A stretch of DNA of 64,000 nucleotides from Narcine bancroftii (Eukaryota), in assembly GCF_036971445.1 (NCBI RefSeq), contig NC_091481.1, forward strand, positions 83,390,001 to 83,454,000, read 5' to 3'. Within the stretch, counting starts at the first letter, position 1, and each line of letters starts with the position of its first letter. Made by a program: the position numbers and the translations under genes. Positions 6,886 to 59,071 of the stretch are shown here, piece after piece. The notes under the pieces were generated by a model. That model had not been told where the DNA came from, made no database searches, and saw nothing but the letters and a program-made list of their open reading frames with translations.

Positions 6886-7590
6886 AGAGAGATCTCGCCG
6901 TTAAGTGGCCAAGGTGATAGATAGGCGTTGAAGAAGGCCTCCATGTGTGGCTTCGTTAACCATGGGATGGAACACAAGAGAAGGAGGATCATTGTTCCAG
7001 CGATTGAAGATGTTTATGGGGCCTCACCTGGAGTATCGTGTATAGTACGTTTGCCACACTGCAGAACAGGATGGGGTTGGTGCGGAGAGGGTGCAGAGGA
7101 GATTCACCAGGATGATACTTACACACAGGGGAGAGAAGACATTGGATACTGGAGCAAATATAAACAACTGGATGGTGGAAGTTGGTGGGTCGACAGTGGA
7201 AGGAAAACAATTGTCGACATTTCTGGTCAGATCCCTTCATCCAGTCTTGATGAAGTGACAGTGAATATCAGTTCAATTTCAGGTTCCCACCCAAATTATT
7301 AACTATTCTATTTTTCCAACTGATGCCCCTCGACCTGCTGAGCTCCTCCAGTAGAATTTGTTGTTGCTTTTTTTTTAAACATGAGGACATTGTTGCCTAT
7401 ATTGGATCAGTTTAGTTTTAAGGACAGATTACATGGGCTGGGTTTGAATCCAATAAACAATCGAGCAAAAGTTTGTAAGCTGGTTGGAGCTTTAGGCAAG
7501 ATTTTATCTTGTGTAACAAAATTTGGTTCCTTGCTGACGCAGGATGACCTGTACATTCTGACCCATTTTACCTTCTCTCTTGCTTTGCAG

Positions 7591-8492
7591 TGAATTTCGT
7601 GGCGATTGTGATCCTGTCCCGGGGTAAGTGCGGGCTCTCCCCTTGCACCACCCTGTACCTGGTGGCCATGGCGGTAGCGGACCTCTTGACCATCGTCACC
7701 CAGGTCATACTACGGCGCATCAATATTTATTATTTCCCCTGGAACTTCCTGCGCATCACGCCCGTCTGCAGTGTGCTGTTTGTCCTCAGGCATGCGGCCA
7801 GGGGCTGTTCTGTCTGGTTCACTGTTACTTTCACCTTTGATCGATACGTAGCCATTTGCTGCCAGAAGTTAAAAAATAAATACTGCACCAGAAAAACCGC
7901 GGTGGTGGTTCTGACGATAACTGGCACTCTGGTCTGTTTAAAAAATATTCCCAAGTACTTCACACAGGAACCTTGGGTGATCATCGACGGTATTCCTTGG
8001 CTGTGTATATTTAAGGCAGAATATTACTCTAAGCCGGAGTGGGTGGGATTTGACTGGTTCGACGCTGTATCAACCCCATTGCTGCCTTTCGGATTAATCT
8101 TGTTGTTTAATGTTCTGACGGTCAAACACATTCTGGTTGCCAGTCGGGTACGCAAGGGGCTAAGAGGTCAAAGCAAGGGAGAGAAGGCCAGTGACCCCGA
8201 GATGGAGAACCGCAGGAAGTCTATCATTTTACTCTTCACGCTATCGGGCAGCTTCGTCCTCCTGTGGCTGTCGTACATTATAGATTCCTTCTTTTATTCC
8301 ATCACTGGCACCACCGTCAGTGACTACAACAGTTCTCAATACAACTTTCGTTATGTTGGAGCCATGCTTCTACATTTAAGTTGCTGCACTAACACATTTA
8401 TCTATGCTGTGACTCAGTCCAAGTTCAGGGAACAGCTCAAGAACTTGGCTAAGTGTCCCGTACCTTCAATTATCCAAAAAATGTATCAATAA
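7591..8492 (+). CDS. GPR139/142-like class A GPCR copy 1, coding exon 2 (322 aa spliced protein)
   Basis: Acceptor ttgcag at 7590; 7TM pattern with YLVAMAVADL (TM2), TM3 Cys, FTFDRYVAIC, ECL2 Cys, TM5 PLLPF, TM7 NTFIY; open frame. Confidence 0.9.
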
Positions 8493-9677
8493 AACTGAAC
8501 TCAACAATTGATGTGCACAGATGTACTGGGTCAGAACAAATATTGGACTCATTGGGAGGGTTTGCAAAGCCGATCTGAGGTTTACGAGTCTACCTGTATC
8601 TTGACAATTTCCCTGTGAGTGCTGGATTCAATTCAATCAGATTTTAATGTTGTAAACACAGCAGCCCAGATTAGGTGATAGAGATTGAAGCTGAGGCAGT
8701 AGAATTCTGCCTGCAGGATGTGGGAAATCTGGGACAGCATGAAAGTCCATGGTGACTCCACCTGCATCCAGCTGTAGGTCCTTACAGACCGTGTTGGGGG
8801 ACTGGAGCTAGATGAACACTGGATCATCCAGGAGGCAGAGGGAAGTGATAAACAAAAGCTATAAGGAGACAGTCACACCAAAGGGGTAAGAGAAAGGTCA
8901 TTGGTTGACTGTTCGGAAATGGAAAGGCAGTCAGTGTGGAATACCCCTGTGACCATTCCCCTCAGCAACAAGTATACGCCCTTCGATACTGCTGGGGTTG
9001 AATGACTTGTCTGTGCAAGGCAATGGCCGGTCAATAGCACCGTGGTCAGATCTAAGCCCCAGTGGGGAAGGGTGGAGAGTGATAATCGGTGTCATGTTTG
9101 TTAGAGGAACGGATAGGAGATTTAGCAGCCACAAAATAGACTCCAGGATATAACCTGGGTGCTCAGGTTCAGGATGTGTCTGGGTAGTTGCAGAATATTC
9201 TTAATGGACAAAGTCTCACCAATGCCTCATAAAGCCTCAATTTAAGGAGTCACGTGATGGAGTAGTGGCCGGTCAGGGAATTCCAGCCCTCTCCAGAAAA
9301 GTTTAAAAAAAAACACAAAGCACAAAGGTACAAGATTAAAATTTATAATAAAGTAAAAATAAAGGTGAGAAGAAAATGGCAGCAAAGAGAGAAAAGTCGA
9401 AAACAACGGGAAGAAAAGAGGAAGAAAGAATGTCGGAAGAAGAAGGTGAAGGCCTTACCTGTCCGAAGAGGCCCGCCGCGGAGAGAGAAGCCCGCTCCCT
9501 CAGGTCAGTGGAAGTCTCAGGCTCAGGACTACAAAAATGGCTCGCGGAGCCGAGTAAAAGTGCGCAACCGCGCATGCGCGAGGAGTCGCGCATGAAAAAA
9601 AACACACTGACGGGAGGGGGGAACAGCTGCGGAGTCGATCTCCACAGCTGAGAGAGACACCTCCAGCACAGCAGCAG

Positions 9678-10610
9678 GTGCAGAACACGGACAATAACGA
9701 CAACAAGAAAGAAGAGGGTAAAAAGAAAACAAGGAAACAACAGATGGTCAACCCAGAGGAAGAAGAAGAAGAAGAACATAGAGAAATGGAAGAAGAAGGG
9801 AAGGGCAAGACAATGGATGTATCTTTTTTTAAAGAATATATGGAATCAGTGAAAGAATGGCAATTACAAGAATTTGATGAGATAAAAAGAAGAATTAAGA
9901 ATGCAGAAGAAAGAATGAATAAAATGGAAGTGGCCATATCAGAATTGGCAAAAAGAGTGGAAAATATGGAAAAACGAGAAACATTTGTAGATATGGAAGT
10001 AAAAGACTTAAAAAAGAAATTAGAAGAATCTAATAAAATAGTTAAAGAGACACAAGAGCTGTTAGCTCAGAAGATAGATATAATAGAAAACTATAATAGA
10101 AGAAATAATATAAAGATAGTGGGCCTTAAGGAAGATGAAGAAGGCAAGAATATGAGAGAATTTATAAAAGATTGGATCCCCAGGGTCCTGGGAAGACCAG
10201 AATTACAGGAAGAAATGGAAATAGAGAGGGCACATAGAACATTAGCCCCGAAACCACAACCGCAGCAAAAACCAAGATCCATTTTAGTAAAATTCTTAAG
10301 ATATACAACAAGAGAAAATATATTGGAGAAAGCAATGAAGAAAGTAAGAGAAGACAAAAAGCCACTGGAATACAAAGGTCAAAAAATTTTTTTCTATCCA
10401 GACATAAGTTTTGAACTCCTGAAGAAGAGGAAGGAGTTCAATACAGCGAAAACGATCTTATGGAAAAAAGGATATAAATTTATGTTAAAGTACCCAGCGG
10501 TACTCAAAATAGTTATTCCAGGGCAACAAAACAGACTATTCTCGGATCCAGAGGAAGCAAGGAAATTTGCAGAACAACTACAAAACAAGCAGAGAAATGA
10601 AGACATGTAA
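9678..10610 (+). CDS. L1 ORF1p (coiled coil, RRM, CTD); true start uncertain
   Basis: ENYNRRNNIKIVGLKE, EIERAHR, PRSILVKF, IFFYPDIS and KYPA motifs typical of L1 ORF1p. Confidence 0.85.
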   Translation: MQNTDNNDNKKEEGKKKTRKQQMVNPEEEEEEEHREMEEEGKGKTMDVSFFKEYMESVKEWQLQEFDEIKRRIKNAEERMNKMEVAISELAKRVENMEKRETFVDMEVKDLKKKLEESNKIVKETQELLAQKIDIIENYNRRNNIKIVGLKEDEEGKNMREFIKDWIPRVLGRPELQEEMEIERAHRTLAPKPQPQQKPRSILVKFLRYTTRENILEKAMKKVREDKKPLEYKGQKIFFYPDISFELLKKRKEFNTAKTILWKKGYKFMLKYPAVLKIVIPGQQNRLFSDPEEARKFAEQLQNKQRNEDM

Positions 10611-10684
10611 TGAGAGTAAAAATGACCACGAACTATATGTATGTGTGTAAAGGGGTATATGTGTGTATATATATAGTGTGTATA

Positions 10685-11657
10685 TTCAGAGCCAGCTCTT
10701 CAGCGCTTGACGTCCTGCTTTGCGGAAACTGCCAAAATGTTTGGCCTGGAAGTCAGCCTGAAGAAAACTGAGGTCCTCCATCAGCCAGCTCCCCACCATG
10801 ACTACCAGCCCCCCCACATCTCCATCGGGCACACAAAACTCAAAACGGTCAACCAGTTTACCTATCTCGGCTGCACCATTTCATCAGATGCAAGGATCGA
10901 CAATGAGATAGACAACAGACTCGCCAAGGCAAATAGCGCCTTTGGAAGACTACACAAAAGAGTCTGGAAAAACAACCAACTGAAAAACCTCACAAAGATA
11001 AGCGTATACAGAGCCGTTGTCATACCCACACTCCTGTTCGGCTCCGAATCATGGGTCCTCTACCGGCACCACCTACGGCTCCTAGAACGCTTCCACCAGC
11101 GCTGTCTCCGCTCCATCCTCAACATCCATTGGAGCGCTCACACCCCTAACGTCGAGGTACTCGAGATGGCAGAGGTCGACAGCATCGAGTCCACGCTGCT
11201 GAAGATCCAGCTGCGCTGGATGGGTCACGTCTCCAGAATGGAGGACCATCGCCTTCCCAAGATCGTATTATATGGCGAGCTCTCCACTGGCCACCGTGAC
11301 AGAGGTGCACCAAAGAAAAGGTACAAGGACTGCCTAAAGAAATCTCTTGGTGCCTGCCACATTGACCACCGCCAGTGGGCTGATAACGCCTCAAACCGTG
11401 CATCTTGGCACCTCACAGTTTGGCGGGCAGCAGCCTCCTTTGAAGAAGACCGCAGAGCCCACCTCACTGACAAAAGGCAAAGGAGGAAAAACCCAACACC
11501 CAACCCCAACCAACCAATTTTCCCTTGCAACCGCTGCAATCGTGTCTGCCTGTCCCGCATCGGACTGGTCAGCCACAAACGAGCCTGCAGCTGACGTGGA
11601 CTTTTTTACCCCCTCCATAAATCTTCGTCCGCGAAGCCAAGCCAAAGAAAAAAAAAA
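10685..11657 (+). mobile_element. 5'-truncated RTE-clade LINE inserted in the L1 inter-ORF spacer
   Basis: Uninterrupted ORF 10707-11594 (FTYLG, QLRWMGHVSRM, C-terminal CxxC...H...C finger); GCCAAGCCAAAGAAA tail; lands in a TA/TG-rich tract. Confidence 0.9.
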
Positions 11658-12088
11658 TACATGAATGTATCTGTATTTAGAGGAAAATATATAGAATATA
11701 GACAAGAATTAATAAGGGAGGGAAAGGGAATAGAGGGATTAAGGAGGGAATTAAAAGAGTGACCTTTGTTACATATGAAAATTGAAATCTTTTCTGGGAG
11801 GGGCTGGGAGGGGAGGAGTTACGGTCACTACAAAATCAGTTGACGTTTGTGAGTGAATTCGCAAATCCAAATGGAGAGGGGAGATATGGTTGTCCAACAA
11901 GGGATAAAGGACAACTCAGGAGGGGGAGGGGAGAATGGGGTTAAAGAAGTTTTAAATAGGAGAATAAGGAAAATGTTTGATGTTTTAGAAATGTTGTCTT
12001 ATAAAGTGTTCAAAACAAGAAAACAGAAATGGATAAGAAGGAAAGGTGATGATGGAGAAACGGAAAGGGAAGATAAACAAAGTATGAA

Positions 12089-15000
12089 ATGGCTACGCTG
12101 AACTATATGACTTTAAATATTAACGGAATACATAACCAAATTAAAAGGAAGAAACTGCTAAATTTACTGAAAAAAGAAAAAATTGATATAGCATTTGTGC
12201 AAGAAACACATTTAACTGAATTGGAGCACAAGAAATTAAAGAGAGATTGGGTAGGACACATAACAGCAGCGTCGTATAATTCAAAAGCAAGAGGAGTAGC
12301 TATATTAGTTAGTAAAAATGTGCCAATTAAAATAGAAGAGGAAATAATAGATCCAGCAGGGAGATATGTAATGATAAAATGTCAGATATATTCGGAGTTT
12401 TGGAATCTACTCAATGTATATTCACCTAATGAAGAAGATCAAAAGTTTATGCAAGATATTTTTTTGAAGATAGCAGATACGCAAGGGAACATATTAATAG
12501 GAGGGGATTTCAACCTGAATTTGGATTCAAATATGGACAAAACTGGGAAAAAAATTAACAGAAAGAACAAAGTAACTAAATTTATAATTAAATCAACGGA
12601 AGAAATGCAACTTTTGGATATATGGAGGAAACAACACCCAAATGAAAAGGAATATTCATATTACTCGGCTAGACATAAAACATACTCAAGAATAGACCTA
12701 TTTTTGTTATCAGCTCATATGCAGGATAGAGTAAGAGAAACATAATATAAAGCTAGAATACTATCGGACCATTCACCCTTAATATTGACAGTAAAGTTAG
12801 AGGACATCCCTCCAAGAATGTATAGATGGAGATTAAACCCCATGCTACTTAAAAGGCAGGATTTTAGAGAATTTATTGAAAAACAATTAAAAATGTATTT
12901 TGAAGTAAATACGGAATCAGTGGAAGATAAGTTTATACTATGGGATGCAATGAAAGCGTTCATCAGAGGGCAAATAATAAGTTATGTAACCAAGATGAAG
13001 AAGGACTATAATCAGGAAACAGAGCAGTTGGAAAGGGAAATAGTAAATATAGAAAAAGAATTAGCAATGAAGGAAGATACAACTAAAAGAAGAGAATTGG
13101 CAGATAAAAAAATAAAATATGAAACATTACAAACATATAAGGTGGAGAAGAACATAATGAAGACAAAACAGAAATATTATGAATTAGGGGAAAAAACGCA
13201 CAAAATTCTAGCATGGCAGCTTAAGACAGAACAAGCTAAGAAAATGGTATTGGCATCAAGGAAAAAAGACAAACAAATTACATATAATCCAAAGGAGCTC
13301 AAGGAAAACTTTAGAGAATTCTATGAACAATTATACCAAACTGAAAACGAAGGGAAAGAAGGGAAAATAGATGAATTTCTAACTAAAATTGAACTACCAA
13401 AACCACAAATTGAGGAACAAAATAAATTAACAGAACCATTTGGAATAGTAGAAATACAAGAGATAATAAAAAAATTACCAAATAATAAAACACCAGGAGA
13501 GGATGGATTCCCAATAGAATTCTATAAAACATTTAAAGATTTATTAATTCCTCCCCTCCTGGAAGTAATCAACCAGATTGATAAAACACAAAGCTTACCA
13601 GATTCATGTAAAACAGCAATAATTACAGTAATACTAAAGCAAGGGAAAGATCCACTCACACCAGCGTCATATAGACCAATATCATTACTTAACACAGATT
13701 ATAAGATAATAGCTAAACTATTAGCAAACAGATTAGCAGAGTATGTACCGAAAATGGTAAATCTAGACCAAACTGGATTTATTAAAAAAAGACGCACAAC
13801 AGACAATATTTGTAAATTTATTAACTTAATTCATGCAGTAGAAGGGAGTAAAGCGCCAACAGTAGCAGTTGCTTTAGATGCAGAGAAGGCCTTTGACAGA
13901 GTAGAATGGAATTATTTATTCAAAGTATTGCAAAAATTCAGTTTACCAGAGAAATATATTAATTGGATTAAAGCATTATATAAGGGGCCATTGGTGAAAG
14001 TGACAGTAAATGGATATATAGCAAAGCAATTTAACTTAAGCAGTTCAACAAGGCAGGGATGCCCACTATCACCATTATTGTTCGCGTTAGCTATAGCACC
14101 ACTAGCAGAATTGATAAGAACAGTAAATAATATAAAAGGGATAAAAATAAAAGACAAGGAATATAAAATCAGTTTATTTGCAGATGACGTTATAGTATAC
14201 TTAACAGAACCAGAAATATCAATAAAAGAATTACATAAGAAATTGAAGGAATATGGAGAAATGTCGGGATACAAGATTAACGCAAATAAAAGTGAAGCAA
14301 TGCCAATGAATAATGCGGATTTCTCAAAATTTAAGAAGGATCACCATTCAGATGGCAAATGCAAGCAATAAGATACCTAGGTATACAAATAAATAAAAAT
14401 CTCGGCCATCTATATAAACTCAATTATTATCCACTAATGAAAAAATTACAGGACGATTTAGAGCATTGGAAAGATTTACCATTAACACTAATAGGAAGGA
14501 TAAACTGAATTAAAATGAACATTTTCCCAAGGATATTATACCTATTTCAGACATTGCCAATACACTTGACAGAGAAATTCTTCAAGGAGTTAAAGAAAAT
14601 AATAAGGAAATTTTTATGGAAAGGGGGGAAACCGAGGATAGCACTAGATAAATTAACAGAATGGTATAAACAAGGAGGCTTACAACTGCCAAACTTTAAA
14701 AATTATTATAGAGCCGCACAATTAAGATACCTATCAGATTTTTATCAAACAAGGGAAAAGCCAGATTGGACTAGATTAGAATTAGATAAAACAGGGGAAA
14801 AGATACCTGAACATATATTATATAAATGGGATGAAAAATTGGTACAACATAGAAGTTCTCCAGTATTACATCATCTACTCAATATTTGGAAAAAGATTCA
14901 TGCAGAAAGGAATAAAACAAATTATCAATTACCAAAACTAATATTGACGCAAAATAAGTTACCCCCTTTTACAATAGATAACCTTTCCTTTAGAGAATGG

Positions 15001-15885
15001 GAGAAAAAAGGGATCAAGAGAATAGAAAATTGTTTTTCAGGAAATAGATTATTATCCTTTGAACAAATGGAAGATAAATACAATATAACTCAAGATACAG
15101 TGCTGGCATATTACCAATTGAGATCCTACTTGAAGGACAAATTAGGAAGCAGTCTGAGGTTACCAGAGGGAAGTAACCTTGAATATGTGATTACAGAAAC
15201 AATGATAATCAAAAGATTTATAACAAATATGTATATTAAACTGCAAGAAAAGGAGAACGAGGAAACAAATGGTAAAACTAAACAAAAATGGGAACAAGAT
15301 TTAAATATAAAGATAAAAAAGGAAACATGGGAGAAGTTATGTTCTGGAACGATGAGAAATACAATAAATATGGGGTTACGTATGATACAATATAACTGGA
15401 TACACAGGCTATACATTACACCTCAAAAGTTAAATAAATGGGACCCAACAGTATCTGATAGATGTTTTCGATGTAAAAAATAAATGGGAACAACAATTCA
15501 TGCAATCTGGACATGTGAGAAAGTAGAAAAATTTTGGGAAGATCTAAACCAAATATTAAATAAAATTACAGAAAACAATATACCAAAAAACCCAGAGATC
15601 TTCCTCCTAAGTAACATAAAAAACAAAGAATTTGGAATTGATTTGGAGGATGCACAAAAAAGACTTGTTAAGATAGCTCTAGCCATAGCAAAAAAATGTA
15701 TTATGTCAACCTGGAAATTGGAAGATAATTTGAAAATACAACAATGGTATATAGAAATGAATAAATGTATTCCATTAGAAAAAATAACATATAGTTTAAG
15801 AAATAATATTGAAATATTTGAACAAATATGGGAGCCTTACATGAAACACAATAGAGAAAACCTACCGGGGACAATCACTACCTAA
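12089..15885 (+). pseudogene. L1 ORF2p (APE endonuclease, RT, Cys-rich domain) with 3 nonsense codons and 1 frameshift
   Basis: TLNINGI, VQETH, GGDFN, SDHSP, RQGCPLSP and FADD motifs; stops at 12743-12745, ~14506 and 15481-15483; 1-nt deletion at ~14340. Confidence 0.9.
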
Positions 15886-18737: not shown

Positions 18738-20040
18738 GTAAGTGCCTTTCGCCTTTACATTTCACTGAGTCGGGCTTCACCTCCGCTCTGTCTGTCCTCA
18801 GGAATACGTCTTCCACTCCAGCCCCTCTGAACTATGTCCACCTCCTTCTGGCCCTCCCTTCGCCTCCCTCCCTTTTAAGCTGGTCAATAAAATCAGGCCT
18901 GCATTAATTATGAAGCAAAATGAGCACATGCTGAGGGCACCAAGTGAAGGGGTGTCGCAAATTTTTTTCCCGTGCCAGATTTACCAGGCTGTAGCTGAAT
19001 GAGGGCTCTACATAAAGTCCCCCACCACAATAAATGAAGTTATACATACACAAGTCAAGGTTATGTGATGGTCTGTGTCGTGATACAGCTATTGAGGTTA
19101 TATTTAATATCGTTGTGGGGTCTCACCTCGTAGAAAACTGAATTTTTTTAATCTATTATTTCACATTCAGCACTTAACATCTTGTCAGTAAAAGGAAGGG
19201 TGGAGGAGGAACGACTGTTGGGCTTTGTTTAGGCCTCAATCAGGCCCTGTGTAAATCTCTTACCCGCATCTCCTCCATTACCCCACTTCTGCTCCCACCC
19301 AATCTCACCTTCAGATGCAACAGGGATATGGGGTCTTTTTGAAAGAGATCTCGCCGTTAAGTGGCCAAGGTGATAGATAGGCATTGAAGAAGGCCTCCAT
19401 GTGTGGCTTCATAAACCGTGGGATGGAACACAAGAGGAGGAGGATGATTGTTCCAGCGATTGAAGATGTTTATGGGGCCTCACCTGGATTATCGTGTGTA
19501 GTACGCATTAAAACACTGCAGAGCAAGATGGGATTGGTGTGGAGAGGGTGCAGAGGAGATTCAGCAGGATGATACTGACACACAGTGGAGAGAAGATATT
19601 GGGGAAAATATAAACAACTGGATGGTGGAAGTTCGAGGGTCGACAGTGGAAGGAAAACAATTGTCGACATTTCTGGTCAGATCCCTTCATCCAGTCTTGA
19701 TGAAGTGACAGTGAATATCAGTTCGATTACAGGTTCTAACCCAAATCATAACCATTCTTTTTCTCCCACTGATGCCCCTTGACCTGCTGAGCTCCTCTAG
19801 TAGAATTTGTTCTTGCTTTTTTTTTTAAACACCAGGATATTGTTGCCTATATTTGATCAGTTTAATTTTAAGGACAGATTACATGGGCTGGGTTTGATCC
19901 AATAAACAATCGAGCATAAAGTTCGTAAGCATGTTGGGGTTTTAGGTAAGATTTTATCTTCTGTAACAAAATTTGGTTCCTTGCTGACGCAGGATGACCT
20001 ATACATTCTGACCCATTTTACCTTCTCTCTTGCTTTGCAG

Positions 20041-20942
20041 TGAATTTCGTGGCGATTGTGATCCTGTCCCGGGGCAAGTGTGGACTCTCCCCTTGCACCA
20101 CCCTGTACCTGGTAGCCATGGCGGTGGCGGACCTCTTGACCATTGTCAACCATGTCATACTATGGCGGGTCAATATTTATTATTTCCCCTGGAACTTCCT
20201 GCGCATCACGCCCGTCTGCAGTGTGCTGTTTGTCCTCATGAATGCGGCCAGGGGCTGTTCTGTCTGGTTCACTGTTACTTTCACCTTTGATCGATACGTG
20301 GCCATTTGCTGCCAGAAGTTAAAAAATAAATTCTGCACCAGGAAAACCGCGGTGGTGGTTCTGACGATAACTGGCACTCTGGTCTGTTTAAAAAATATTC
20401 CCAAGTACTTCACACAGGAACCTTGGGTGATCATCGACGGTATTCCTTGGCTGTGTATATTTAAGGCAGAATACTACTCTAAGCCGGAGTGGGTGGGATT
20501 TGACTGGTTCGACGCTGTTTCAACCCCATTGCTGCCTTTCGGTTTAATCTTGTTGTTTAATGTTCTGACAGTCAAACACATTCTGGTTGCCAGTCGGGTA
20601 CGCAAGGGGCTAAGAGGTCAAAGCAGGGGAGAGAAAGGCAGTGACCCCGAGATGGAGAACCGCAGGAAGTCTATCATTTTACTCTTCACGCTATCGGGCA
20701 GCTTCGTCCTCCTGTGGCTGTCGTACATTATAGATTCCTTCTTTTATTCCATCACTGGCACCACCGTCAGTGACTACAACAGTTCTCAATACAATTTTCG
20801 TTACGTGGGAGCCATGCTTCTACATTTAAGTTGCTGCACTAACACATTTATCTATGCTGTGACTCAGTCCAAGTTCAGGGAACAGCTCAAGAACTTGGCT
20901 AAGTGTCCCGTACCTTCAATTATCCAACAAATTTATCAATAA
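20041..20942 (+). CDS. GPR139/142-like GPCR copy 2, coding exon 2
   Basis: Acceptor ttgcag at 20040; intact 7TM frame with DRY motif. Confidence 0.9.
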
Positions 20943-25028: not shown

Positions 25029-25350
25029 AGATCGAGAGGTGATCTCGTATCAGAGATCGAGAGGTGATCTCGTATCAGAGATCGAGAGGTGATCTCGTAT
25101 CAGAGATCGAGAGGTGATCTCGTATCAGAGATCGAGAGGTGATCTCGTATCAGAGATCGAGAGGTGATCTCGTATCAGAGATCGAGAGGTGATCTCGTAT
25201 CAGAGATCGAGAGGTGATCTCGTATCAGAGATCGAGAGGTGATCTCGTATCAGAGATCGAGAGGTGATCTCGTATCAGAGATCGAGAGGTGATCTCGTAT
25301 CAGATATCGAGAGGTGATCTCGTATCAGAGATTGAGAGGTGATCTCGTAT
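25029..25350. repeat. 25-bp minisatellite, ~13 copies (AGATCGAGAGGTGATCTCGTATCAG)
   Basis: Direct tandem repeat with no spacers, inside a CR1 fragment in the copy 3 intron. Confidence 0.95.
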
Positions 25351-26250
25351 GAGGAAGACATATAAAGGATAGGAAGAATCCTTTACCCCATGGTGGGGGT
25401 ATCTAAAACAAGAGGGCAGAGGTTAAGGTGAGGAAGAGAAGGTTTAGAGGGGATATTTTATAGGGGATGGTTAGTCCCTGGAGCACTCTGCCTGAGGCTG
25501 TGTTGAGGGCAGAGTCTCTCACAACAGTCAGGCAAATGTTGAAGTAGGTTGATTCCAGAGATGAGGTGGGGGGACAGGGCATTAACCTGTGAAGGGAGAT
25601 TGAGTCATCTGGGGCTGTACTCGCTGGTATTTAGAATTAGGGGGATTTTATAGAAATGTACACCTGTATGAAAGGCATAGATATAATGGAATCAGGCAAA
25701 TTGTTCCCATTGGCCATTGGTGGGGGAAGTCGAGAACTAGGGGACATAGCCTCAAGGTCCAGGGGAGTAGATTTAGGACGGAGATCAGGAGGAACTGTTT
25801 TACCCAAAGGGCAGTGAATCTGTGGAATTTTCCACCCTTTGAAGCAGTAGAGGCAGCCTCAGTGAATATATTTAAGACAAGGTTGGATAGATTTTTACAT
25901 ATTAGGGGAATTAAGGGAAATGGGGAAAAGGCAGGTCGGTGGAGATGAGCCGATCATCAGATCGGCCATGATCTCATTGAATGGTGGAACAGACTCAATG
26001 GGCCAGATGGCCAACACCTGCTCCTATTTCTTTGTTTCTTATGAATCATAAAGGCATAGAAGACTATGAGCAAAGGCAGAAAAGGGATGAGTGTGGATTC
26101 ATTCAATGGTTAGTATGGACACAGTGAACCAAAGGGTTTGTGTCACTGCTATGTGACCCCCAACACCAAGTGGTCCCCAATAGATTTATTGAGCAGATTC
26201 ATGGTGTCAGGATGAATCTGACCCATTTTACACTCTCTCTTGCTTTGCAG

Positions 26251-27146
26251 TGAATTTCGTGGCGATTGTGATCCTGTCCCGGGGTAAGTGTGGGCTCTCC
26301 CCTTGCACCAGCCTGTACCTGGTGGCCATGGCCGTGGCGGACCTCTTGACCATCGTCACCCAGGTCATACTAAGGCAGATCAATACTTATTATTTCCCCT
26401 GGAATTTCCTGCGCATCACGCCCGTCTGCAGTGTGCTCTTTGTCCTCAGGCATGCGGCCAGAGGCTGTTCTGTCTGGTTCACTGTTACTTTCACCTTTGA
26501 TCGATACGTGGCCATTTGTTGCCAGAATTTAAAAAATAAATACTGCACCAGGAAAACTGCAGTGGTGGTTCTGACGATAACTGGCACTCTGGTCTGTTTA
26601 AAAAATATTCCCAAGTATTTTACACAGGAACCTTGGGCAATCGTCGACAGTATTCCTTGGCTGTGCTTTTATAAGCCGGAATATTTCTCTCAGCCGGAAT
26701 GGGTGGGATTTGACTGGTTCGACGCTGTTTCAACCCCATTGCTGCCTTTCGGATTAATCTTGTTGTTTAATGTTCTGACGGTCAAACACATTCTGGTTGC
26801 CAGTCGGGTACGCAAGGGGCTAAGAGGTCAAAGCAATGGAGAGAAAGGCAGTGACCCCGAGATGGAGAACCGCAGGAAGTCTATTATTTTACTCTTCACG
26901 CTATCGGGCAGCTTCATCTTCTTGTGGCTGTCGTACATTATAGATTCCTTCTTTTATTCCATCGCTGGCATCGCTGTCAGTGAGTACAACAGTTCTCAAT
27001 ACAACTTTCGTTATGTGGGAGCCATGCTGGTGTCTTTAAGCTGCTGCACTAACACATTTATCTATGCTGTGACTCAGTCCAAGTTCAGGGAACAGCTCAA
27101 GAACTTGGCAAAGTGTCCCGTACCTTCAATTATCCAGAGTTTATAA
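26251..27146 (+). CDS. GPR139/142-like GPCR copy 3, coding exon 2 (320 aa spliced protein)
   Basis: Acceptor ttgcag at 26250; intact 7TM frame with a divergent ECL2, ECL3 and TM7. Confidence 0.9.
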
Positions 27147-44207: not shown

Positions 44208-45570
44208 TCTTTGCAATCTCTAGATATAAAGAGGTTTCTTTTGATGTTTCCTTTGTGGAAATTGTGGCTATTCTTTAAGAAAAATGCATTTTTAGATTTT
44301 TCTGCCAAGTCATCCTTTACCCTATCTTTTCCCCTCAAGAGAAAAGGGACCCAGTCATGATGATTAATGTACTAGGTGGATAGGAACACAATGTTTGTCC
44401 AAAATTATCAGAAGTGATTTGGTACCTGGTCATTAGTGTGCTCACTAAATGATCTGCCCTTGAACAAGGTTATCCAATCCTGATGCCGCCTGGTTGGAGA
44501 CTACTCAATAAAGGGCTTCAGTCTACAAGAGGTGGTGACTTAAGAAAGCAGCCTCAATCCTTAAGGACCCTCACCACCCCAGCCATGCCCTCTTCACTCT
44601 GCTACCATAAGGAAGGTACACACACAACAGTACAAAAACAACTTCTTCCCCTCTGTCATAAGATTTCTGAATGGGACAATGAACAATTGACACTACCTCA
44701 CCTTCTCTTATTTTTGCACTAATTTATTTTTAAATGTAGTAATATCTGCATTGTAATGCTTCTGCAAAACAACAAAATCTTGTGACATGTTTATGACATT
44801 AAATTCTGATTCTTTTTCTCCCATTGAACCCATGAGTTCTTCCAGTAAATACTACTTAGCCTTGCAAAACACCCTTAACCCTGGAACTCTCATAAATTCC
44901 ATCAAGTCTCTCCTCAGCCAGTGAGAACAACCTGAAGTTTGTCCAATCTCTCCTTATGGCTCTAATGCAGCCAGAGTCCTGGTCCATCTCTTCTGTGCCT
45001 TTTCCAAGGCCTCCTGTAATGGGCCAACCAGGATTGCACACAATGTCCTGTTGGTATTTCAAGTGTTTTCTTTTTCCATTTTTTTTCTTGTACCGACAGT
45101 GTGTCATTTAAATTCACCTCATCTTCCATCTGGGCATCCTCCAACCAGATGGCATTAACAATGATTTCTCGGATTTCAGTTTAATCCGGCCCCCCACCTC
45201 CTTTTGTGTGTCACCTTTCCCCCAGCTCTGTCTCTCTCTGCCTTCCCTTTCACAGAGCCAAAATTAATTCTCACGTTTCCTCTTATATTCAATTAACATC
45301 TTTTGTTGGCCCTGCTAGTTTTCAGTCTTCACTAAAAACACAACCCTAACACTTCACTGCATTTGCATTAAAACACCACAGCTCTCAAAATGTGCCCACA
45401 TCAAACACACTGCAACGTAACCAACAAAGTAAATTAGTTTTAGTAATGGCTCGGAATAAATATACATTGGTATATGATAAATACTTCAATGAAGGGCTCA
45501 AGCCTGGACTGTTGGTTTATGCATCTTTATTTTTGCTATACAGTATAAACACCTGATAGTCTGCATACGC

Positions 45571-45767
45571 CTTCCGATCTCAGAAGCTAAGCAGGCTCAG
45601 GGTTGATCAGTCCTTGGAGGGAAACCACCTAGGAACACTAGGTGCTGTAAGTTTCTGTGAGGGGCGCTGGACAAAGTGGTGACTCTATCTACCTTACCGT
45701 TGTCAAAAGTCAAAGAACTTCATTCTAAATGTAGTATTACATGACAATAATGAAATCTTTACCTTTA
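45571..45767 (+). mobile_element. 5S rRNA-derived SINE-like insert (SINE3 type) or 5S pseudogene with an appended tail
   Basis: CCGATCTCAGAAGCTAAGCAGG...TTGGAGGGAAACCACCTAGGAACACTAGGTGCTGTAAGTTT matches the 3' two-thirds of 5S rRNA, followed by ~110 nt ending TGACAATAATGAAATCTTTACCTTT. Confidence 0.7.
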
Positions 45768-46017: not shown

Positions 46018-46500
46018 CCAACCCCCTCCACCTCCCCCCACCTTCTCCCCACCCCCCCCTCTCCCCACCCCCCTCCTCTCCCCACCCCCCCCTCTCCCCA
46101 CCCCCCCTCTCCCCACCCCCCCTCCTCTCCCACCCCCCTCCTCTCCCCACCCCCCCCCTCTCCCCACCCCCCCCTCTCCCCACCCCCCCCTCTCCCCACC
46201 CCCCTCCTCTCCCCACCCCCCCCCTCTCCCCACCCCCCCCTCTCCCCACCCCCCCCTCTCCCCACCCCCCTCCTCTCCCCACCCCCCCCTCTCCCCACCC
46301 CCCCCTCTCCCCACCCCCCTCCTCTCCCCACCCCCCCCTCTCCCCACCCCCCCCTCTCCCCACCCCCCCCTCTCCCCACCCCCCCCCTCCCCACCCCCCC
46401 CCTCTCCCCACCCCCCTCCTCTCCCCACCCCCCTCCTCTCCCCACCCCCCCCTCTCCCCACCCCCCCCTCTCCCCACCCCCCTCCTTCACCCCCTCCCTC
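46018..46500. repeat. C-rich tandem repeat (~15-18-bp unit, CTCTCCCCAC plus a C run) in BCKDHA intron 1
   Basis: Direct reading; G-rich on the BCKDHA sense strand. Confidence 0.95.
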
Positions 46501-46554
46501 ATCCATCCCCCCTTCCGTCTCCCACCCCGACTTCCGTCTCCCACCCCGACTTAC

Positions 46555-46659
46555 ACTGCAGGCCAGAGTGCGCCGAGCGCCGGCCGTGAGGGAGTTACAG
46601 CTGCTCAGACACCGCCTGAGGCCGCGCCACCCTCGACCCAGTTGCCTGACCGCCGCCAT
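46555..46659 (-). CDS. BCKDHA: BCKDHA exon 1 (mitochondrial transit peptide)
   Basis: aagATGG start; MAAVRQLGRGWRGLRRCLSSCNSLTAGARRTLACS is Arg-rich with no acidic residues; GTAAGT donor; the nine exons sum to 1332 nt (443 aa plus stop). Confidence 0.88.
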
Positions 46660-47324
46660 CTTCACTGCCTGTCTTGGCTACTGCCTGATCCACACAGTCA
46701 CCCTCCACCAACCCCTCCCACCTCGGGGAACAGACCAACACCCGCTCTCACCGGCTCCCCGCAAGAATTGAATAATCAAATAGTAAATAACTCGGGAGGG
46801 GAGGAAACTCCCTGCAAAACCACGCAGGCGGGAGTTAGCCCCCTGCGAGACGCCGCGTGGTGGCCCGCCTCCCGCTCACACCAATTGGCTAACACCTGGA
46901 GGTCATCGGAGCTGATTGGTGGGAAGGGCCCGACGGTCGCGGAGCTGATTGGTGGGAAGCGCCCGACGGTCGCGAAACTGATTGGTGGGAAGGGCCCGAC
47001 GGTCGCGAAGCTGATTGGTGGGAAGCGCCCGACGGTCGCGGAGCTGATTGGTGAGAAGCGCCCGACGGTCGCGGACCTGATTGGTGGGAAGCGCCCGACG
47101 GTCGCGAAGCTGATTGGTGGGAAGCGCCCGACGGTCGCGAAACTGATTGGTGGGAAGCGCCTGTCGGTCGCGGAGCTGATTGGTGGGAAGCGCCCGACGG
47201 TCGCGGACCTGATTGGTGGGAAGGGCCCGTCGGTCGCGAAGCTGATTGGTGGGAAGCGCCCGACGGTCGCGAAACTGATTGGTGGGAAGGGCCCGACGGT
47301 CGCGGAGAAGTGACGTAGCCCAAC
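46660..47324. promoter_or_regulatory. CpG-rich bidirectional promoter of BCKDHA and EXOSC5
   Basis: Divergent ATGs separated by 665 bp; CpG-dense; GC-box-like CCCGCCTCC, CCAATTGG palindrome at 46881, TGACGT at 47311; human BCKDHA and EXOSC5 are also head-to-head. Confidence 0.85.
46909..47304. repeat. 12 x 33-bp tandem array, each unit with a CTGATTGG CCAAT box
   Basis: Unit GAGCTGATTGGTGGGAAG(C/G)GCCCGACGGTCGCG; 12 units counted from the 11-aa repeats in ORF 46642-47313. Confidence 0.95.
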
Positions 47325-47421
47325 ATGGAGGTGGAAGGGGCTGAGGTGCGGACGTTGCGGCCGTTCGGTTGCGAGCATGGCCTGCTGTCCCGGTCCGACG
47401 GCTCGGCCTCCTTCACGCAAG
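47325..47421 (+). CDS. EXOSC5: Exosome complex component RRP46, exon 1
   Basis: MEVEGAEVRTLRPFGCEHGLLSRSDGSASFTQ(G), matching the RNase PH-like LSRxDGSA motif; donor G|GTGGGT. Confidence 0.9.
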
Positions 47422-47489
47422 GTGGGTCCCCGGCCTGGTGTTCGTCCCTGACGCTGTGTTGCTTACGGCGCTGTTTCTTCGTCCTGGAG

Positions 47490-48912
47490 GCCCCCCCCTC
47501 GGCCTCCACCCCCCCTCCCTCGGCCTCCACCCCCCCTCCCTCGGCCTCCACCCCCCCCTCCCTCGGCCTCCACCCCCCCCTCCCTCGGCCTCCACCCCCC
47601 CTCCCTCGGCCTCCACCCCCCCCCTCCCTCGGCCTCCACCCCCCCCTCCCTCGGCCTCCACCCCCCCCTCCCTCGGCCTCCACCCCCCCCTCCCTCGGCC
47701 TCCACCCCCCCCTCCCTCGGCCTCCACCCCCCCTCCCTCGGCCTCCACCCCCCCCCTCCCTCGGCCTCCACCCCCCCCCTCCCTCGGCCTCCACCCCCCC
47801 CTCCCTCGGCCTCCACCCCCCCCTCCCTCGGCCTCCACCCCCCCCTCCCTCGGCCTCCACCCCCCCCTCCCTCGGCCTCCACCCCCCCTCCCTCGGCCTC
47901 CACCCCCCCCTCCCTCGGCCTCCACCCCCCCCTCCCTCGGCCTCCACCCCCCCTCCCTCGGCCTCCACCCCCCCTCCCTCGGCCTCCACCCCCCCTCCCT
48001 CGGCCTCCACCCCCCCTCCCTCGGCCTCCACCCCCCCCTCCCTCGGCCTCCACCCCCCCCTCCCTCGGCCTCCACCCCCCCCTCCCTCGGCCTCCACCCC
48101 CCCCTCCCTCGGCCTCCACCCCCCCCTCCCTCGGCCACCACCCCCCCCTCCCTCGGCCTCCACCCCCCCCTCCCTCGGCCTCCACCCCCCCCTCCCTCGG
48201 CCTCCACCCCCCCCTCCCTCGGCCTCCACCCCCCCCTCCCTCGGCCTCCACCCCCCCCTCCCTCGGCCTCCACCCCCCCCTCCCTCGGCCTCCACCCCCC
48301 CCTCCCTCGGCCTCCACCCCCCCCCCCTCGGCCTCCACCCCCCCCTCCCTCGGCCTCCACCCCCCCCTCCCTCGGCCTCCACCCCCCCCTCCCTCGGCCT
48401 CCACCCCCCCTCCCTCGGCCTCCCACCCCCCCCTCCCTCGGCCTCCACCCCCCCCTCCCTCGGCCTCCACCCCCCCCTCCCTCGGCCTCCACCCCCCCCT
48501 CCCTCGGCCTCCACCCCCCCCTCCCTCGGCCTCCACCCCCCCTCCCTCGGCCTCCACCCCCCCTCCCTCGGCCTCCACCCCCCCCTCCCTCGGCCTCCAC
48601 CCCCCCCTCCCTCGGCCTCCACCCCCCCCTCCCTCGGCCTCCACCCCCCCCTCCCTCGGCCTCCACCCCCCCCTCCCTCGGCCTCCACCCCCCCTCCCTC
48701 GGCCTCCACCCCCCCCTCCCTCGGCCTCCACCCCCCCCTCCCTCGGCCTCCACCCCCCCCTCCCTCGGCCTCCACCCCCCCCTCCCTCGGCCTCCACCCC
48801 CCCCTCCCTCGGCCTCCACCCCCCCCTCCCTCGGCCTCCACCCCCCCCCTCCCTCGGCCTCCACCCCCCCCCTCCCTCGGCCTCCACCCCCCCCCCTCCC
48901 TCGGCCTCCACC
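47490..48912. repeat. C-rich minisatellite (~21-23-bp unit CTCCCTCGGCCTCCA plus a C run, ~65 copies) in EXOSC5 intron 1
   Basis: Direct reading; explains the Pro- and Gly-rich spurious ORFs. Confidence 0.95.
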
Positions 48913-49122: not shown

Positions 49123-49322
49123 NNNNNNNNNNNNNNNNNNNNNNNNNNNNNNNNNNNNNNNNNNNNNNNNNNNNNNNNNNNNNNNNNNNNNNNNNNNNNN
49201 NNNNNNNNNNNNNNNNNNNNNNNNNNNNNNNNNNNNNNNNNNNNNNNNNNNNNNNNNNNNNNNNNNNNNNNNNNNNNNNNNNNNNNNNNNNNNNNNNNNN
49301 NNNNNNNNNNNNNNNNNNNNNN
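49123..49322. other. Assembly gap (200 N)
   Basis: Run of N; the round number suggests a scaffolding gap of unknown true size. Confidence 0.99.
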
Positions 49323-55644: not shown

Positions 55645-55762
55645 CTTGTACCTTGTACCTTGTACCTTGTACCTTGTACCTTGTACCTTGTACCTTGTAC
55701 CTTGTACCATGTACCTTGTACCTTGTACCTTGTACCTTGTACCTTGTACCTTGTACCTTGTA
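55645..55762. repeat. (CTTGTAC)n heptamer repeat, ~17 copies
   Basis: Direct reading. Confidence 0.95.
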
Positions 55763-55863
55763 GAAGGGCTCAGGGCCAAAATGTCGGTAGCAAGGCTTTA
55801 CCTTCTATGGATTCCTCGAATCCGGCTGTGTTTCTCCAGCCTTTCCTTAACTGACAGGAACAG

Positions 55864-56004
55864 CTGCTGTCTTGTTGCTTCAACGCTACGTGCATGGCGC
55901 TGATGGATGCAGGGCTCCCAATGAAAAGTGTCTTCTGCGGAATTACATGCATGATCGACTCTGACAGAAACATCCTCCTGGATCCAACGAGCATGATGGA
56001 AAAG
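55864..56004 (+). CDS. EXOSC5: EXOSC5 exon 4
   Basis: [47 protein letters not shown]; 141 nt. Confidence 0.93.
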
Positions 56005-56845: not shown

Positions 56846-56932
56846 GATGCGGCTGCCGTTTTGACATTCTCCATTGACGGTACTGAAAAGCTCCTCACCG
56901 TGTCCACCAAAGGGTCTTACTCCGTTGAGGAG
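56846..56932 (+). CDS. EXOSC5: EXOSC5 exon 5
   Basis: DAAAVLTFSIDGTEKLLTVSTKGSYSVEE; 87 nt; AG/GT boundaries. Confidence 0.9.
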
Positions 56933-58254
56933 GTGGGTTTCATAAAGCTTGTCGCCGACTCCATGGGCCAAATGGGCTGCTTCTGCTCCTATATCTTATG
57001 GTCTTGGCGTCTTTTTTTATCTCTTCCACCCTTTCCATAGCTCCTGATAGAAGGGTTATAGACCTGTGAGGGGTGGTTATTCTATTTCATCATCAACTCT
57101 AACTTCATGGATTTCCTTTGTTCATTTGACCACCAACAGCACTTTGTATGTGTTTGCTTCTCTGCATCTCTCCATGCGTCTTTCTCTCTCTGGCTGTCTC
57201 TCTGGCCCGCTTCTCCCCCCCCCCCCCCAGATGTCGGCATCTTCCCATGTTTCTCGCTTCGATCCTTGATCCTTGCAAATGCCAGCAGATTGTTTAATTT
57301 TGCGAATACCATGCTGTTTATTTCTCTGATGTTCATGAACACACTTTCAACAAGGCCATGCTGGGTAACTGTTAGCACGTGTCTGCCAAAGGCGGAGTGC
57401 TTCAAGCAGCTTTCCCTGGCATTGAGGTGACCAGAATAACATGGACTCTACCGGCCTTGCTTGTCACTGCCTTAGTTTTGCATTATAGAATTGTGACACA
57501 GGTTTATGAGAGCAAACCACGTACAGGGTGTCCATCCCTTCAGGGCAATCTGCAGGTGATTTGGTGGGTATAGAACAGATGGGCACCACTCAGTGCTGAT
57601 CATTGCATAGTCCTGGTTGAAGGTCAGGCAAGATTTGAGAAGCTTAGCAGAGACCCTTTACTGAATGCCAACATCAATTATCGATATATTCTGCACTCAC
57701 TAACTGGCTCATAATTACAAAATTCATTTGTATGATATGTGTGTGACATTAATTTGCACTTAAATGCTAATTATTCATGTTTGGAAAGGCTCTGATTTCT
57801 GGAGCCTCCCCCTAATGAATTGAATATAACCATATAACCATTTACGAAGCGGAAACAGGCCATGTTGGCCTTTCGAGTCCGCACCGGTTCACTGATTTTG
57901 TGCGCCCTCTTCAGGCATTGGTCCCGGTAGATCTTCATTCAATAACGATGGACGAATTCAATGCGGGTGGAATCAGTAAATTAACTATTTAAGTAAATGT
58001 AAAAAGGCAGCAAATTGAGTATCTTCCAGTCATCCAGTAGAGTTCTTCAGTCCATGTGGGAGCGTGGCTAAAGTTTGTAAAGTTAAAGGTGCCATATTAA
58101 TATCAGGTGGAGCTAAACATGAAATTCTGCAGATGCTTGCAGTAAATACATAAAAATTCAGTCGGTCTTGGAGCGCCAATAGGAGGTGAAGCTATATAAT
58201 TGAGTCTTTATTCTAATGCCTTCCTGTTCTTTGCTTATACCTTGAAGAAAGGTG

Positions 58255-58972: not shown

Positions 58973-59071
58973 CTCCAGCAGTGTGTTGCGATAAGCCAGA
59001 AGGCTGCAGAGAATATCTTTCGATTCTACAGGGACTTGGTAAGCAGAAGATACTCAAAACTAAGTGAGTAA
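58973..59071 (+). CDS. EXOSC5: EXOSC5 exon 6 (last)
   Basis: LQQCVAISQKAAENIFRFYRDLVSRRYSKLSE*; candidate AATAAA at 59341. Confidence 0.92.
   Translation, partial: LQQCVAISQKAAENIFRFYRDLVSRRYSKLSE

What the first reader, a model, noticed from the sequence alone, without database searches (positions are those of the whole stretch)
46909..47304. Bidirectional promoter built from a 12 x 33-bp array of NF-Y CCAAT boxes
Seen: 396 of the 665 bp between the BCKDHA and EXOSC5 start codons are a tandem repeat. CTGATTGGT is invariant in all 12 units while flanking positions vary, and the array ends 20 bp before the EXOSC5 ATG. Units also carry GTGGGAA, several CpGs and often TCGCGA. Established: RRCCAATCAG is the optimal NF-Y site, CCAAT boxes are common in bidirectional promoters, and G2/M promoters such as CCNB2 use a few boxes ~32-33 bp apart (about three helical turns). 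Inference: a VNTR has amplified a correctly phased NF-Y module to 12 copies and could act as a copy-number dial on both BCAA catabolism and the RNA exosome.
Basis: partly seen in the sequence, partly recalled or inferred. Interest (0 to 1): 0.75.

Follow-up and report, generated by a model that had tools for sequence, protein, structure and literature searches.

The report
CCAAT minisatellite in ray bidirectional promoter
In a ray, twelve tandem copies of a 33-base unit, each holding a CCAAT box, fill most of the shared promoter of two housekeeping genes; it likely arose by ordinary repeat expansion in a repeat-prone spot and likely acts as a redundant NF-Y landing pad rather than a selected expression dial.

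Summary
The array is real: 12 x 33 bp without indels, 396 of the 665 bp between the BCKDHA and EXOSC5 start codons of an elasmobranch, probably a ray. Contigs of a DNA run, probably the source sample, fit its right boundary and internal unit order. The arguments for design are weak. 27 of 33 columns are invariant, so an invariant CCAAT block is expected (P=0.12). 0 of 12 sites match RRCCAAT. 33 bp drifts about 51 degrees per unit and is not among ENCODE's double-CCAAT spacing peaks. 80% of the surrounding 2.9-kb GC block is tandem repeat, and a random 33-mer from the one-unit promoter holds a CCAAT 24% of the time. Copy-number variation and NF-Y binding are unshown. Best reading: an expanded minisatellite captured an existing NF-Y site in a likely unmethylated CpG island; end boxes likely set the starts and inner ones are largely redundant. 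NF-Y minisatellites are known (ABO, ERV-9 LTR); my searches found none inside a bidirectional core promoter. Interest 0.33.

The parts
46908..47303 (.). 12 x 33-bp minisatellite, 8 unit types in order ABCDEFDGBHDC; one CCAAT box per unit, reading CCAAT on the BCKDHA-sense (-) strand and ATTGG on the EXOSC5-sense (+) strand; no ATG on either strand
   Evidence: X1 contigs fit units 4-5-6 and 6-7, and the unique right-hand contig begins at 47278 as predicted
46881..46888 (.). single-copy palindromic CCAATTGG, its ATTGG 31 bp before that of unit 1; candidate BCKDHA-proximal NF-Y site (inferred)
46660..46907 (-). unique promoter and 5' UTR side of BCKDHA: GC-box-like GGGAGGCGGG near 46865, GGCGGGA at 46827, AT-rich patch near 46766-46792, and a 5-codon uORF (ATG at 46906, MTSRC) that only transcripts starting in the array would carry
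   Evidence: motif labels recalled
46555..46659 (-). BCKDHA exon 1 coding part (35 codons, presumed mitochondrial targeting peptide), GTAAGT donor
   Evidence: by eye its N-terminus is most like the Pristis protein among 7 homologues printed
47304..47324 (+). 21-nt unique tail with a CRE-like half-site TGACGTA (47311) and Kozak context CCAACATGG
   Evidence: motif labels recalled
47325..47421 (+). EXOSC5 (RRP46) exon 1 coding part, GTGGGT donor; spliced to exon 2 in RNA-labelled runs X4 and X6
46018..46482 (.). C-rich 16-bp minisatellite (about 28 copies) in BCKDHA intron 1; shows the local tendency to expand repeats
   Evidence: 14 G4-type matches on the - strand
47491..48912 (.). C-rich 22-bp minisatellite (65 copies) in EXOSC5 intron 1; CpG kept in every copy (65 TCGGCC, 0 TTGGCC or TCAGCC)

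Best explanation
This is a 12-copy, 33-bp minisatellite inside the head-to-head BCKDHA/EXOSC5 promoter of an elasmobranch, which likely grew by slippage or unequal exchange from one pre-existing CCAAT module and likely works as a redundant, saturating NF-Y platform rather than a linear dial. Shown: the array, its position, both start codons, EXOSC5 splicing, and two larger unrelated minisatellites plus a short duplication in the same 2.9 kb. Inferred: (1) a one-unit ancestor had a 302-bp inter-ATG promoter with two CCAAT sites 31 bp apart; (2) the region is an unmethylated CpG island; (3) NF-Y binds most boxes and keeps the region nucleosome-free; (4) by the -60/-100 rule only boxes 10-11 can place an EXOSC5 start upstream of its ATG (47274-47324), while the palindromic box and box 1 serve BCKDHA (about 46786-46857), so the middle boxes add occupancy but little output.
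For: 80% of 46018-48912 is tandem repeat from four arrays with unrelated units. A random 33-mer from the collapsed 302-bp promoter contains a CCAAT 24% of the time and a TGATTGG-type site 10%, so capture by chance is not unlikely. Invariance of the box is at chance level. Only 1 of 7 variant states is a CpG transition although 10 of 33 columns are CpG; P=0.003 if CpG mutated 10-fold faster, 0.57 if not, consistent with an unmethylated island. CpG o/e is about 1.2 over the array against 0.41 for the window. In Mrps12/Sarsm the end boxes set direction and loss of the inner boxes caused only a modest drop (PMC1802594, passages). CCAAT boxes typically lie at -60/-100 and NF-Y keeps promoters nucleosome-free (PMC11802806; 10.1101/369389). 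Start zones computed.
Against: No relative's promoter was obtained (organism B laid 0 contigs; the metagenome scans found no elasmobranch locus), so the one-unit ancestor is inferred. The 5-nt CGGAG repeat at the unit ends is only 1 of 13 such microhomologies in the collapsed promoter, so the seeding mechanism is not pinned down. The period does equal the cyclin B2 spacing (PMC9448500), which chance would not have to give. In reporters the 4-unit ABO repeat gave higher transcription than 1 unit (PMC2988417), so dose effects are possible. The CpG test assumes majority = ancestral, and column 2 is a 6:6 tie.
Confidence: 0.6

Rival explanations
1. Copy-number dial: unit number varies between individuals or species and tunes BCKDHA and EXOSC5 together through the number of bound NF-Y trimers.
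For: The location in the core promoter. The ABO 4-unit repeat is more active than 1 unit in reporters (PMC2988417). [quoted passage not shown] The spacing equals that of cyclin B2.
Against: No polymorphism data. An ABO allele lacking three units had normal transcript levels (PMC7187371). Inner boxes are accessory in Mrps12/Sarsm. Human BCKDHA and EXOSC5 reportedly decouple in hypoxia (preliminary). There is no selection signal on the box.
Confidence: 0.15
2. Start-site ladder: each box drives its own start 60-100 bp downstream, so EXOSC5 starts at 33-nt intervals inside the array and much of the array is an ATG-free 5' UTR; minus-strand starts in the array would give BCKDHA a 5-codon uORF.
For: The array ends about 20 nt before the ATG; start zones for boxes 1-9 fall inside the array; there is no ATG in the array on either strand.
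Against: The array shows no special RNA structure (z=0.39). NF-Y-covered DNA would likely block initiation (inference). The RNA contigs could not test this.
Confidence: 0.12
3. Inert or bound by another factor: NF-Y occupancy is low or irrelevant (C at -2), the GTGGGAA/GTGAGAA core is read by a CSL/RBPJ-type factor, or nothing binds.
For: 0 of 12 match RRCCAAT; all 12 units keep GTGRGAA (the CSL core is recalled).
Against: The 3' flank CAG and the -1 purine fit NF-Y in 12 of 12. The base before GTGGGAA is G, not the C/T preferred by CSL (recalled).
Confidence: 0.09
4. The copy number is an assembly artefact (collapsed or inflated).
For: A 200-N gap lies 1.8 kb downstream, and the start of EXOSC5 exon 2 seen in RNA contigs is absent from the window. 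Only units 4-7 and the right boundary could be matched to contigs; no piece spans the array.
Against: Eight unit types and no indels. The 93-nt X1 contig fits only units 4-5-6 (1 of 12 registers), the 63-nt contig only units 6-7 (1 of 11), and repeat contigs reach depth 4-7 against 2 for the unique one. X1 is probably the source sample, so this is not independent.
Confidence: 0.04

Closest known systems
Human ABO CBF/NF-Y minisatellite (43-bp unit, 1 or 4 copies, about -3.8 kb); PMC7187371 and PMC2988417 (passages read)
   Same: Tandem unit with one CCAAT box per copy; NF-Y site number set by repeat number
   Different: ABO is a distal enhancer of one gene with 1-4 copies, shown polymorphism and shown binding; here 12 copies lie in the core of a bidirectional housekeeping promoter, with neither binding nor polymorphism shown
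ERV-9/LTR12 U3 enhancer (5-17 repeats of 37-41 bp with CCAAT and CCACC motifs, NF-Y bound); PMC3769647 (passage read)
   Same: Similar copy number and unit length; CCAAT plus CCACC in each unit (here overlapping: CCCACCAAT)
   Different: A retroviral LTR in thousands of copies; here a single-locus array with no other copy of the unit in the window; no LTR origin was shown or tested genome-wide
Mouse Mrps12/Sarsm bidirectional promoter (4 same-strand CCAAT boxes, NF-Y); PMC1802594 (passages and section 22 read)
   Same: Bidirectional promoter involving mitochondrial genes; all boxes on one strand
   Different: Four non-repeated, human-mouse conserved boxes; not a minisatellite
Cyclin B2-type G2/M promoters (CCAAT boxes 33 bp apart); seen only as cited in the review PMC9448500; primary paper not read
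   Same: 33-bp spacing
   Different: Few boxes in unique sequence with CDE/CHR elements; here no TTTGAA CHR on either strand in 46501-47450, and the genes are housekeeping genes

Membership tests
NF-Y minisatellite enhancer (ABO type) | tandem unit with one CCAAT box per copy | tested here: met
   12 of 12 units
NF-Y minisatellite enhancer (ABO type) | copy number polymorphic between alleles | tested here: inconclusive
   only one haplotype; the one DNA run of this species that was laid is probably the source sample and gives short contigs
NF-Y minisatellite enhancer (ABO type) | NF-Y binds the unit | not testable with these tools
   motif only: RCCAATCRG in 12 of 12, RRCCAAT in 0 of 12
NF-Y minisatellite enhancer (ABO type) | distal enhancer position | tested here: not met
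   the array lies between two ATGs 665 bp apart
NF-Y multi-CCAAT bidirectional promoter (Mrps12/Sarsm type) | head-to-head genes less than 1 kb apart with several same-strand CCAAT boxes | tested here: met
   the human pair is also described as bidirectional (PMC3300008)
NF-Y multi-CCAAT bidirectional promoter (Mrps12/Sarsm type) | boxes conserved between species | tested here: inconclusive
   organism B laid 0 contigs; no orthologous promoter found
NF-Y multi-CCAAT bidirectional promoter (Mrps12/Sarsm type) | boxes needed for transcription in both directions | not testable with these tools
   needs reporters
G2/M CCAAT-CDE/CHR promoter (cyclin B2 type) | CCAAT boxes about 33 bp apart | tested here: met
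   11 of 11 spacings are 33
G2/M CCAAT-CDE/CHR promoter (cyclin B2 type) | CHR element (TTTGAA, recalled) near the start | tested here: not met
   0 matches on either strand in 46501-47450; variant CHRs not searched
BANP/Kaiso TCTCGCGAGA element | full 10-bp motif (recalled) | tested here: not met
   only the TCGCGA core, 6 times; 0 full matches

The most novel reading that the evidence does not exclude
Elasmobranch promoter minisatellites preferentially amplify CCAAT modules at 32-33 bp because that period lets a dozen DNA-bending NF-Y trimers sit side by side in an open superhelix (a toy model gives 17 nm between non-neighbouring sites at 33 bp, but self-collision at an exact 31.5 bp). The array would then be a heritable, copy-number-tunable nucleosome-free scaffold that sets output, and perhaps a 33-nt ladder of starts, for both BCAA catabolism and the RNA exosome. 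An unchecked note of a 32-bp CCAAT minisatellite near shark DNAJC27 would be a second case.
Probability: 0.12. Interest if true: 0.62.

Novelty: new variant of a known kind. Interest (0 to 1): 0.33.

Why it matters
If inert or saturating, it is a tidy example of a promoter minisatellite capturing a factor site, of modest interest. If output scales with unit number, it is a natural 1-to-12 dose series for NF-Y in a core bidirectional promoter. That would test whether NF-Y sites add up or saturate and whether the end boxes set direction, a question the ABO repeat left open (PMC7187371).

Tried and rejected
No whole genome is held, so dispersed copies of the unit and a genome-wide rate of CCAAT minisatellites could not be counted. 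Run search: 9 runs from 3 studies; no holder is on record as RNA (4 are guessed RNA). Four of the 9 were laid, on 47238-47488 only. The RNA-labelled contigs cover 47368-47422 (X4) and 47378-47422 (X6) and none touches the array; contigs cannot show starts and a filter drops records, so this says nothing about the start site. A start at those places would also leave no in-frame ATG in exon 1. The best RNA-labelled run holds 0.29 of the words, while the two first-exon coding parts are 0.17 and the array 0.32 of distinct words: a weak hint that the whole array is not in mature RNA, not used as evidence. Organism B (0.14 share) laid 0 contigs, which is no proof of absence. A pattern scan of metagenome contigs gave 0 matches; a protein scan gave 2 loci at 52-56% identity, too distant and not examined further. 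A coding role was rejected: frames are open through the array because 33 bp is 11 codons, but the frame in phase with EXOSC5 stops at 47316-47318 and there is no ATG on + between the genes. RNA structure: z=0.39. Rfam: nothing over the array. A higher-order 4-unit period is weak (mean 1.75 differences at lag 4 against 2.29 overall). The BORIS minisatellite paper (PMC4973313) was not relevant, and passages of PMC7793273 gave no spacing data. Literature searches (listings only, open-access library) showed no description of this array or of CCAAT minisatellites in elasmobranchs. Supplements were not opened; the hypoxia result in PMC3300008 rests on its Supplementary Figure S3, which I did not see.

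Full report
Observation. The sequence at 46908-47303 is twelve head-to-tail 33-bp units without indels (TRF: 12.2 copies, 91% matches). CTGATTGGT recurs every 33 bp, 11 of 11 spacings exact. BCKDHA starts at 46659 on the minus strand and EXOSC5 at 47325 on the plus strand, 665 bases apart. BCKDHA exon 2 is 88-93% identical to its four best hits, all sharks or rays. Eight further exons map by tblastn, and by eye the exon-1 peptide is most like the sawfish protein among 7 printed, so the animal is probably a ray. EXOSC5 exon 1 matches human RRP46 (E=2e-4), and contigs of two RNA-labelled runs show it spliced to a second exon. The human genes are also described as a bidirectional pair (PMC3300008, passage).

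Is it real? I laid 4 of the 9 listed runs on the last two units plus exon 1. DNA run X1, probably the source sample, gave four contigs. The unique one begins at 47278, exactly where a 31-mer graph of the assembled array predicts the branch. A 93-nt contig fits only units 4-5-6 (1 of 12 registers) and a 63-nt contig only units 6-7 (1 of 11). The array and part of its order are therefore in the reads, but the count of 12 is not independently spanned. The assembly is imperfect nearby: a 200-N gap lies at 49123-49322, and the start of EXOSC5 exon 2 seen in RNA has 0 matches in the window at up to 3 mismatches.

Is it designed? (a) Only 6 of 33 columns vary; a fixed 9-column block escapes all six with P=0.12, and 72% of random placements leave an invariant run of 10 or more. 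(b) The site is CACCAATCAG: 0 of 12 match RRCCAAT[CG][AG], though 12 of 12 match RCCAATCRG, so it is good but not optimal. (c) 33 bp is 3.14 turns and drifts about 51 degrees per unit. It equals the cyclin B2 spacing as cited in a review (PMC9448500, passage), but genome-wide double-CCAAT peaks lie at 19, 24-27, 36 and 43 bp, with 19 as the minimum (PMC4889920, passages). The context points to mutation pressure. Both first introns carry larger unrelated C-rich minisatellites (16 bp x 28 and 22 bp x 65), and 80% of 46018-48912 is tandem repeat. Collapsing the array to one unit gives a 302-bp promoter with two CCAAT sites 31 bp apart; a random 33-mer from it holds a CCAAT 24% of the time and a TGATTGG-type site 10%. 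A 5-nt direct repeat flanks the unit, but it is 1 of 13 such repeats at lags 20-60, so the seed is compatible with slippage, not proven. The TCGCGA cores (6) are not full BANP/Kaiso motifs, and no TTTGAA CHR is present (motifs recalled).

How it likely works. CpG o/e is about 1.2 over the array against 0.41 window-wide. Only 1 of 7 variant states is a CpG transition although 10 of 33 columns are CpG (P=0.003 under 10-fold CpG mutability, 0.57 under none; polarity assumed), and the 22-bp array keeps its CpG in all 65 copies. This fits an unmethylated, active island (inference). NF-Y acts in either orientation, and in the four-box Mrps12/Sarsm promoter the end boxes set direction while loss of the inner ones caused a modest drop (PMC1802594, passages and section 22). 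CCAAT boxes typically lie at -60/-100 (PMC11802806, passage), and NF-Y keeps promoters nucleosome-free and fixes start sites (10.1101/369389, passages). Applying the distance rule, box 12 would place a start past the EXOSC5 ATG, boxes 10-11 place it at 47274-47324, and the palindromic box and box 1 place BCKDHA starts near 46786-46857. BCKDHA transcripts starting in the array would carry a 5-codon uORF. I therefore favour (0.6) a redundant NF-Y platform in which the end boxes matter. The rivals are a dial (0.15), a start ladder inside the array (0.12), inert or other-factor binding (0.09), and a wrong count (0.04). No binding, start site or dose effect was measured; the RNA contigs could not locate starts.

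Against my reading. No relative's promoter was obtained: organism B laid 0 contigs, and the metagenome scans gave 0 matches and 2 distant loci. The period does match a functionally tested spacing. Four ABO units outperform one in reporters (PMC2988417, passages), and 193 of 1,071 human gene-VNTR pairs were eQTLs (10.1101/2020.11.03.367367). A toy model with a recalled 80-degree bend per site gives an open superhelix at 33 bp but self-collision at 31.5 bp, so slightly off-phase spacing may suit long arrays; this carries little weight.

Comparison. It works like the ABO CBF/NF-Y minisatellite (four 43-bp units, in-vivo role controversial; PMC7187371, passages) and the ERV-9 LTR (5-17 units of 37-41 bp with CCAAT and CCACC; PMC3769647, passage). 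It sits in a setting like Mrps12/Sarsm. It is not a member of the ABO type in the strict sense (proximal rather than distal; polymorphism and binding unshown), nor of the cyclin B2 type (no CHR found). The combination, an NF-Y minisatellite forming 60% of a bidirectional housekeeping promoter, did not appear in my search listings, which cover an open-access library only.

Verdict. It is a new variant of a known kind, interest 0.33. The bold reading, selected 32-33-bp NF-Y scaffolds acting as dials in elasmobranchs, has probability about 0.12 and would merit about 0.62.

Noticed in passing
window 49123-49322: 200-N gap in EXOSC5 intron 1; the start of exon 2 seen in RNA contigs is absent from the window, so exon 2 and probably exon 3 are missing from this assembly; later exons appear near 55858-56004, around 56860-56933 and near 58973-59071.
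   Followed up: partly
window 7548-8492, 19998-20942, 26193-27146 (+): Three near-identical rhodopsin-family GPCR frames (Pfam 7tm_1, E about 1e-20) within locally duplicated blocks downstream of BCKDHA; they resemble the expanded GPR139-like genes of cartilaginous fish (label recalled, not tested).
   Followed up: partly
window 45528-45653 (+): Degenerate full-length 5S rRNA-like copy in BCKDHA intron 1 (28.7 bits, below the gathering score of 38; E=0.003): a 5S pseudogene or 5S-derived SINE head.
   Followed up: partly
window 9558-15885 (+): LINE with an ORF1-like frame and a reverse transcriptase frame (RVT_1, E=7e-40), broken by stops and apparently interrupted by a fragment of another LINE at 10677-11594.
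   Followed up: no
window 25029-25350 and 55645-55762: Further minisatellites: 25 bp x 12.9 (98% matches) and 7 bp x 16.9.
   Followed up: no
window 46018-46482 and 47491-48912: Both first-intron arrays are C-rich on the + strand (G-rich on -), so G-richness follows the chromosome strand and not the direction of transcription; the BCKDHA one has 14 G4-type matches on its sense strand.
   Followed up: partly
window 47054: The single change in unit 5 turns GTGGGAA into GTGAGAA, both CSL/RBPJ-type cores (recalled); one event, so no weight.
   Followed up: no
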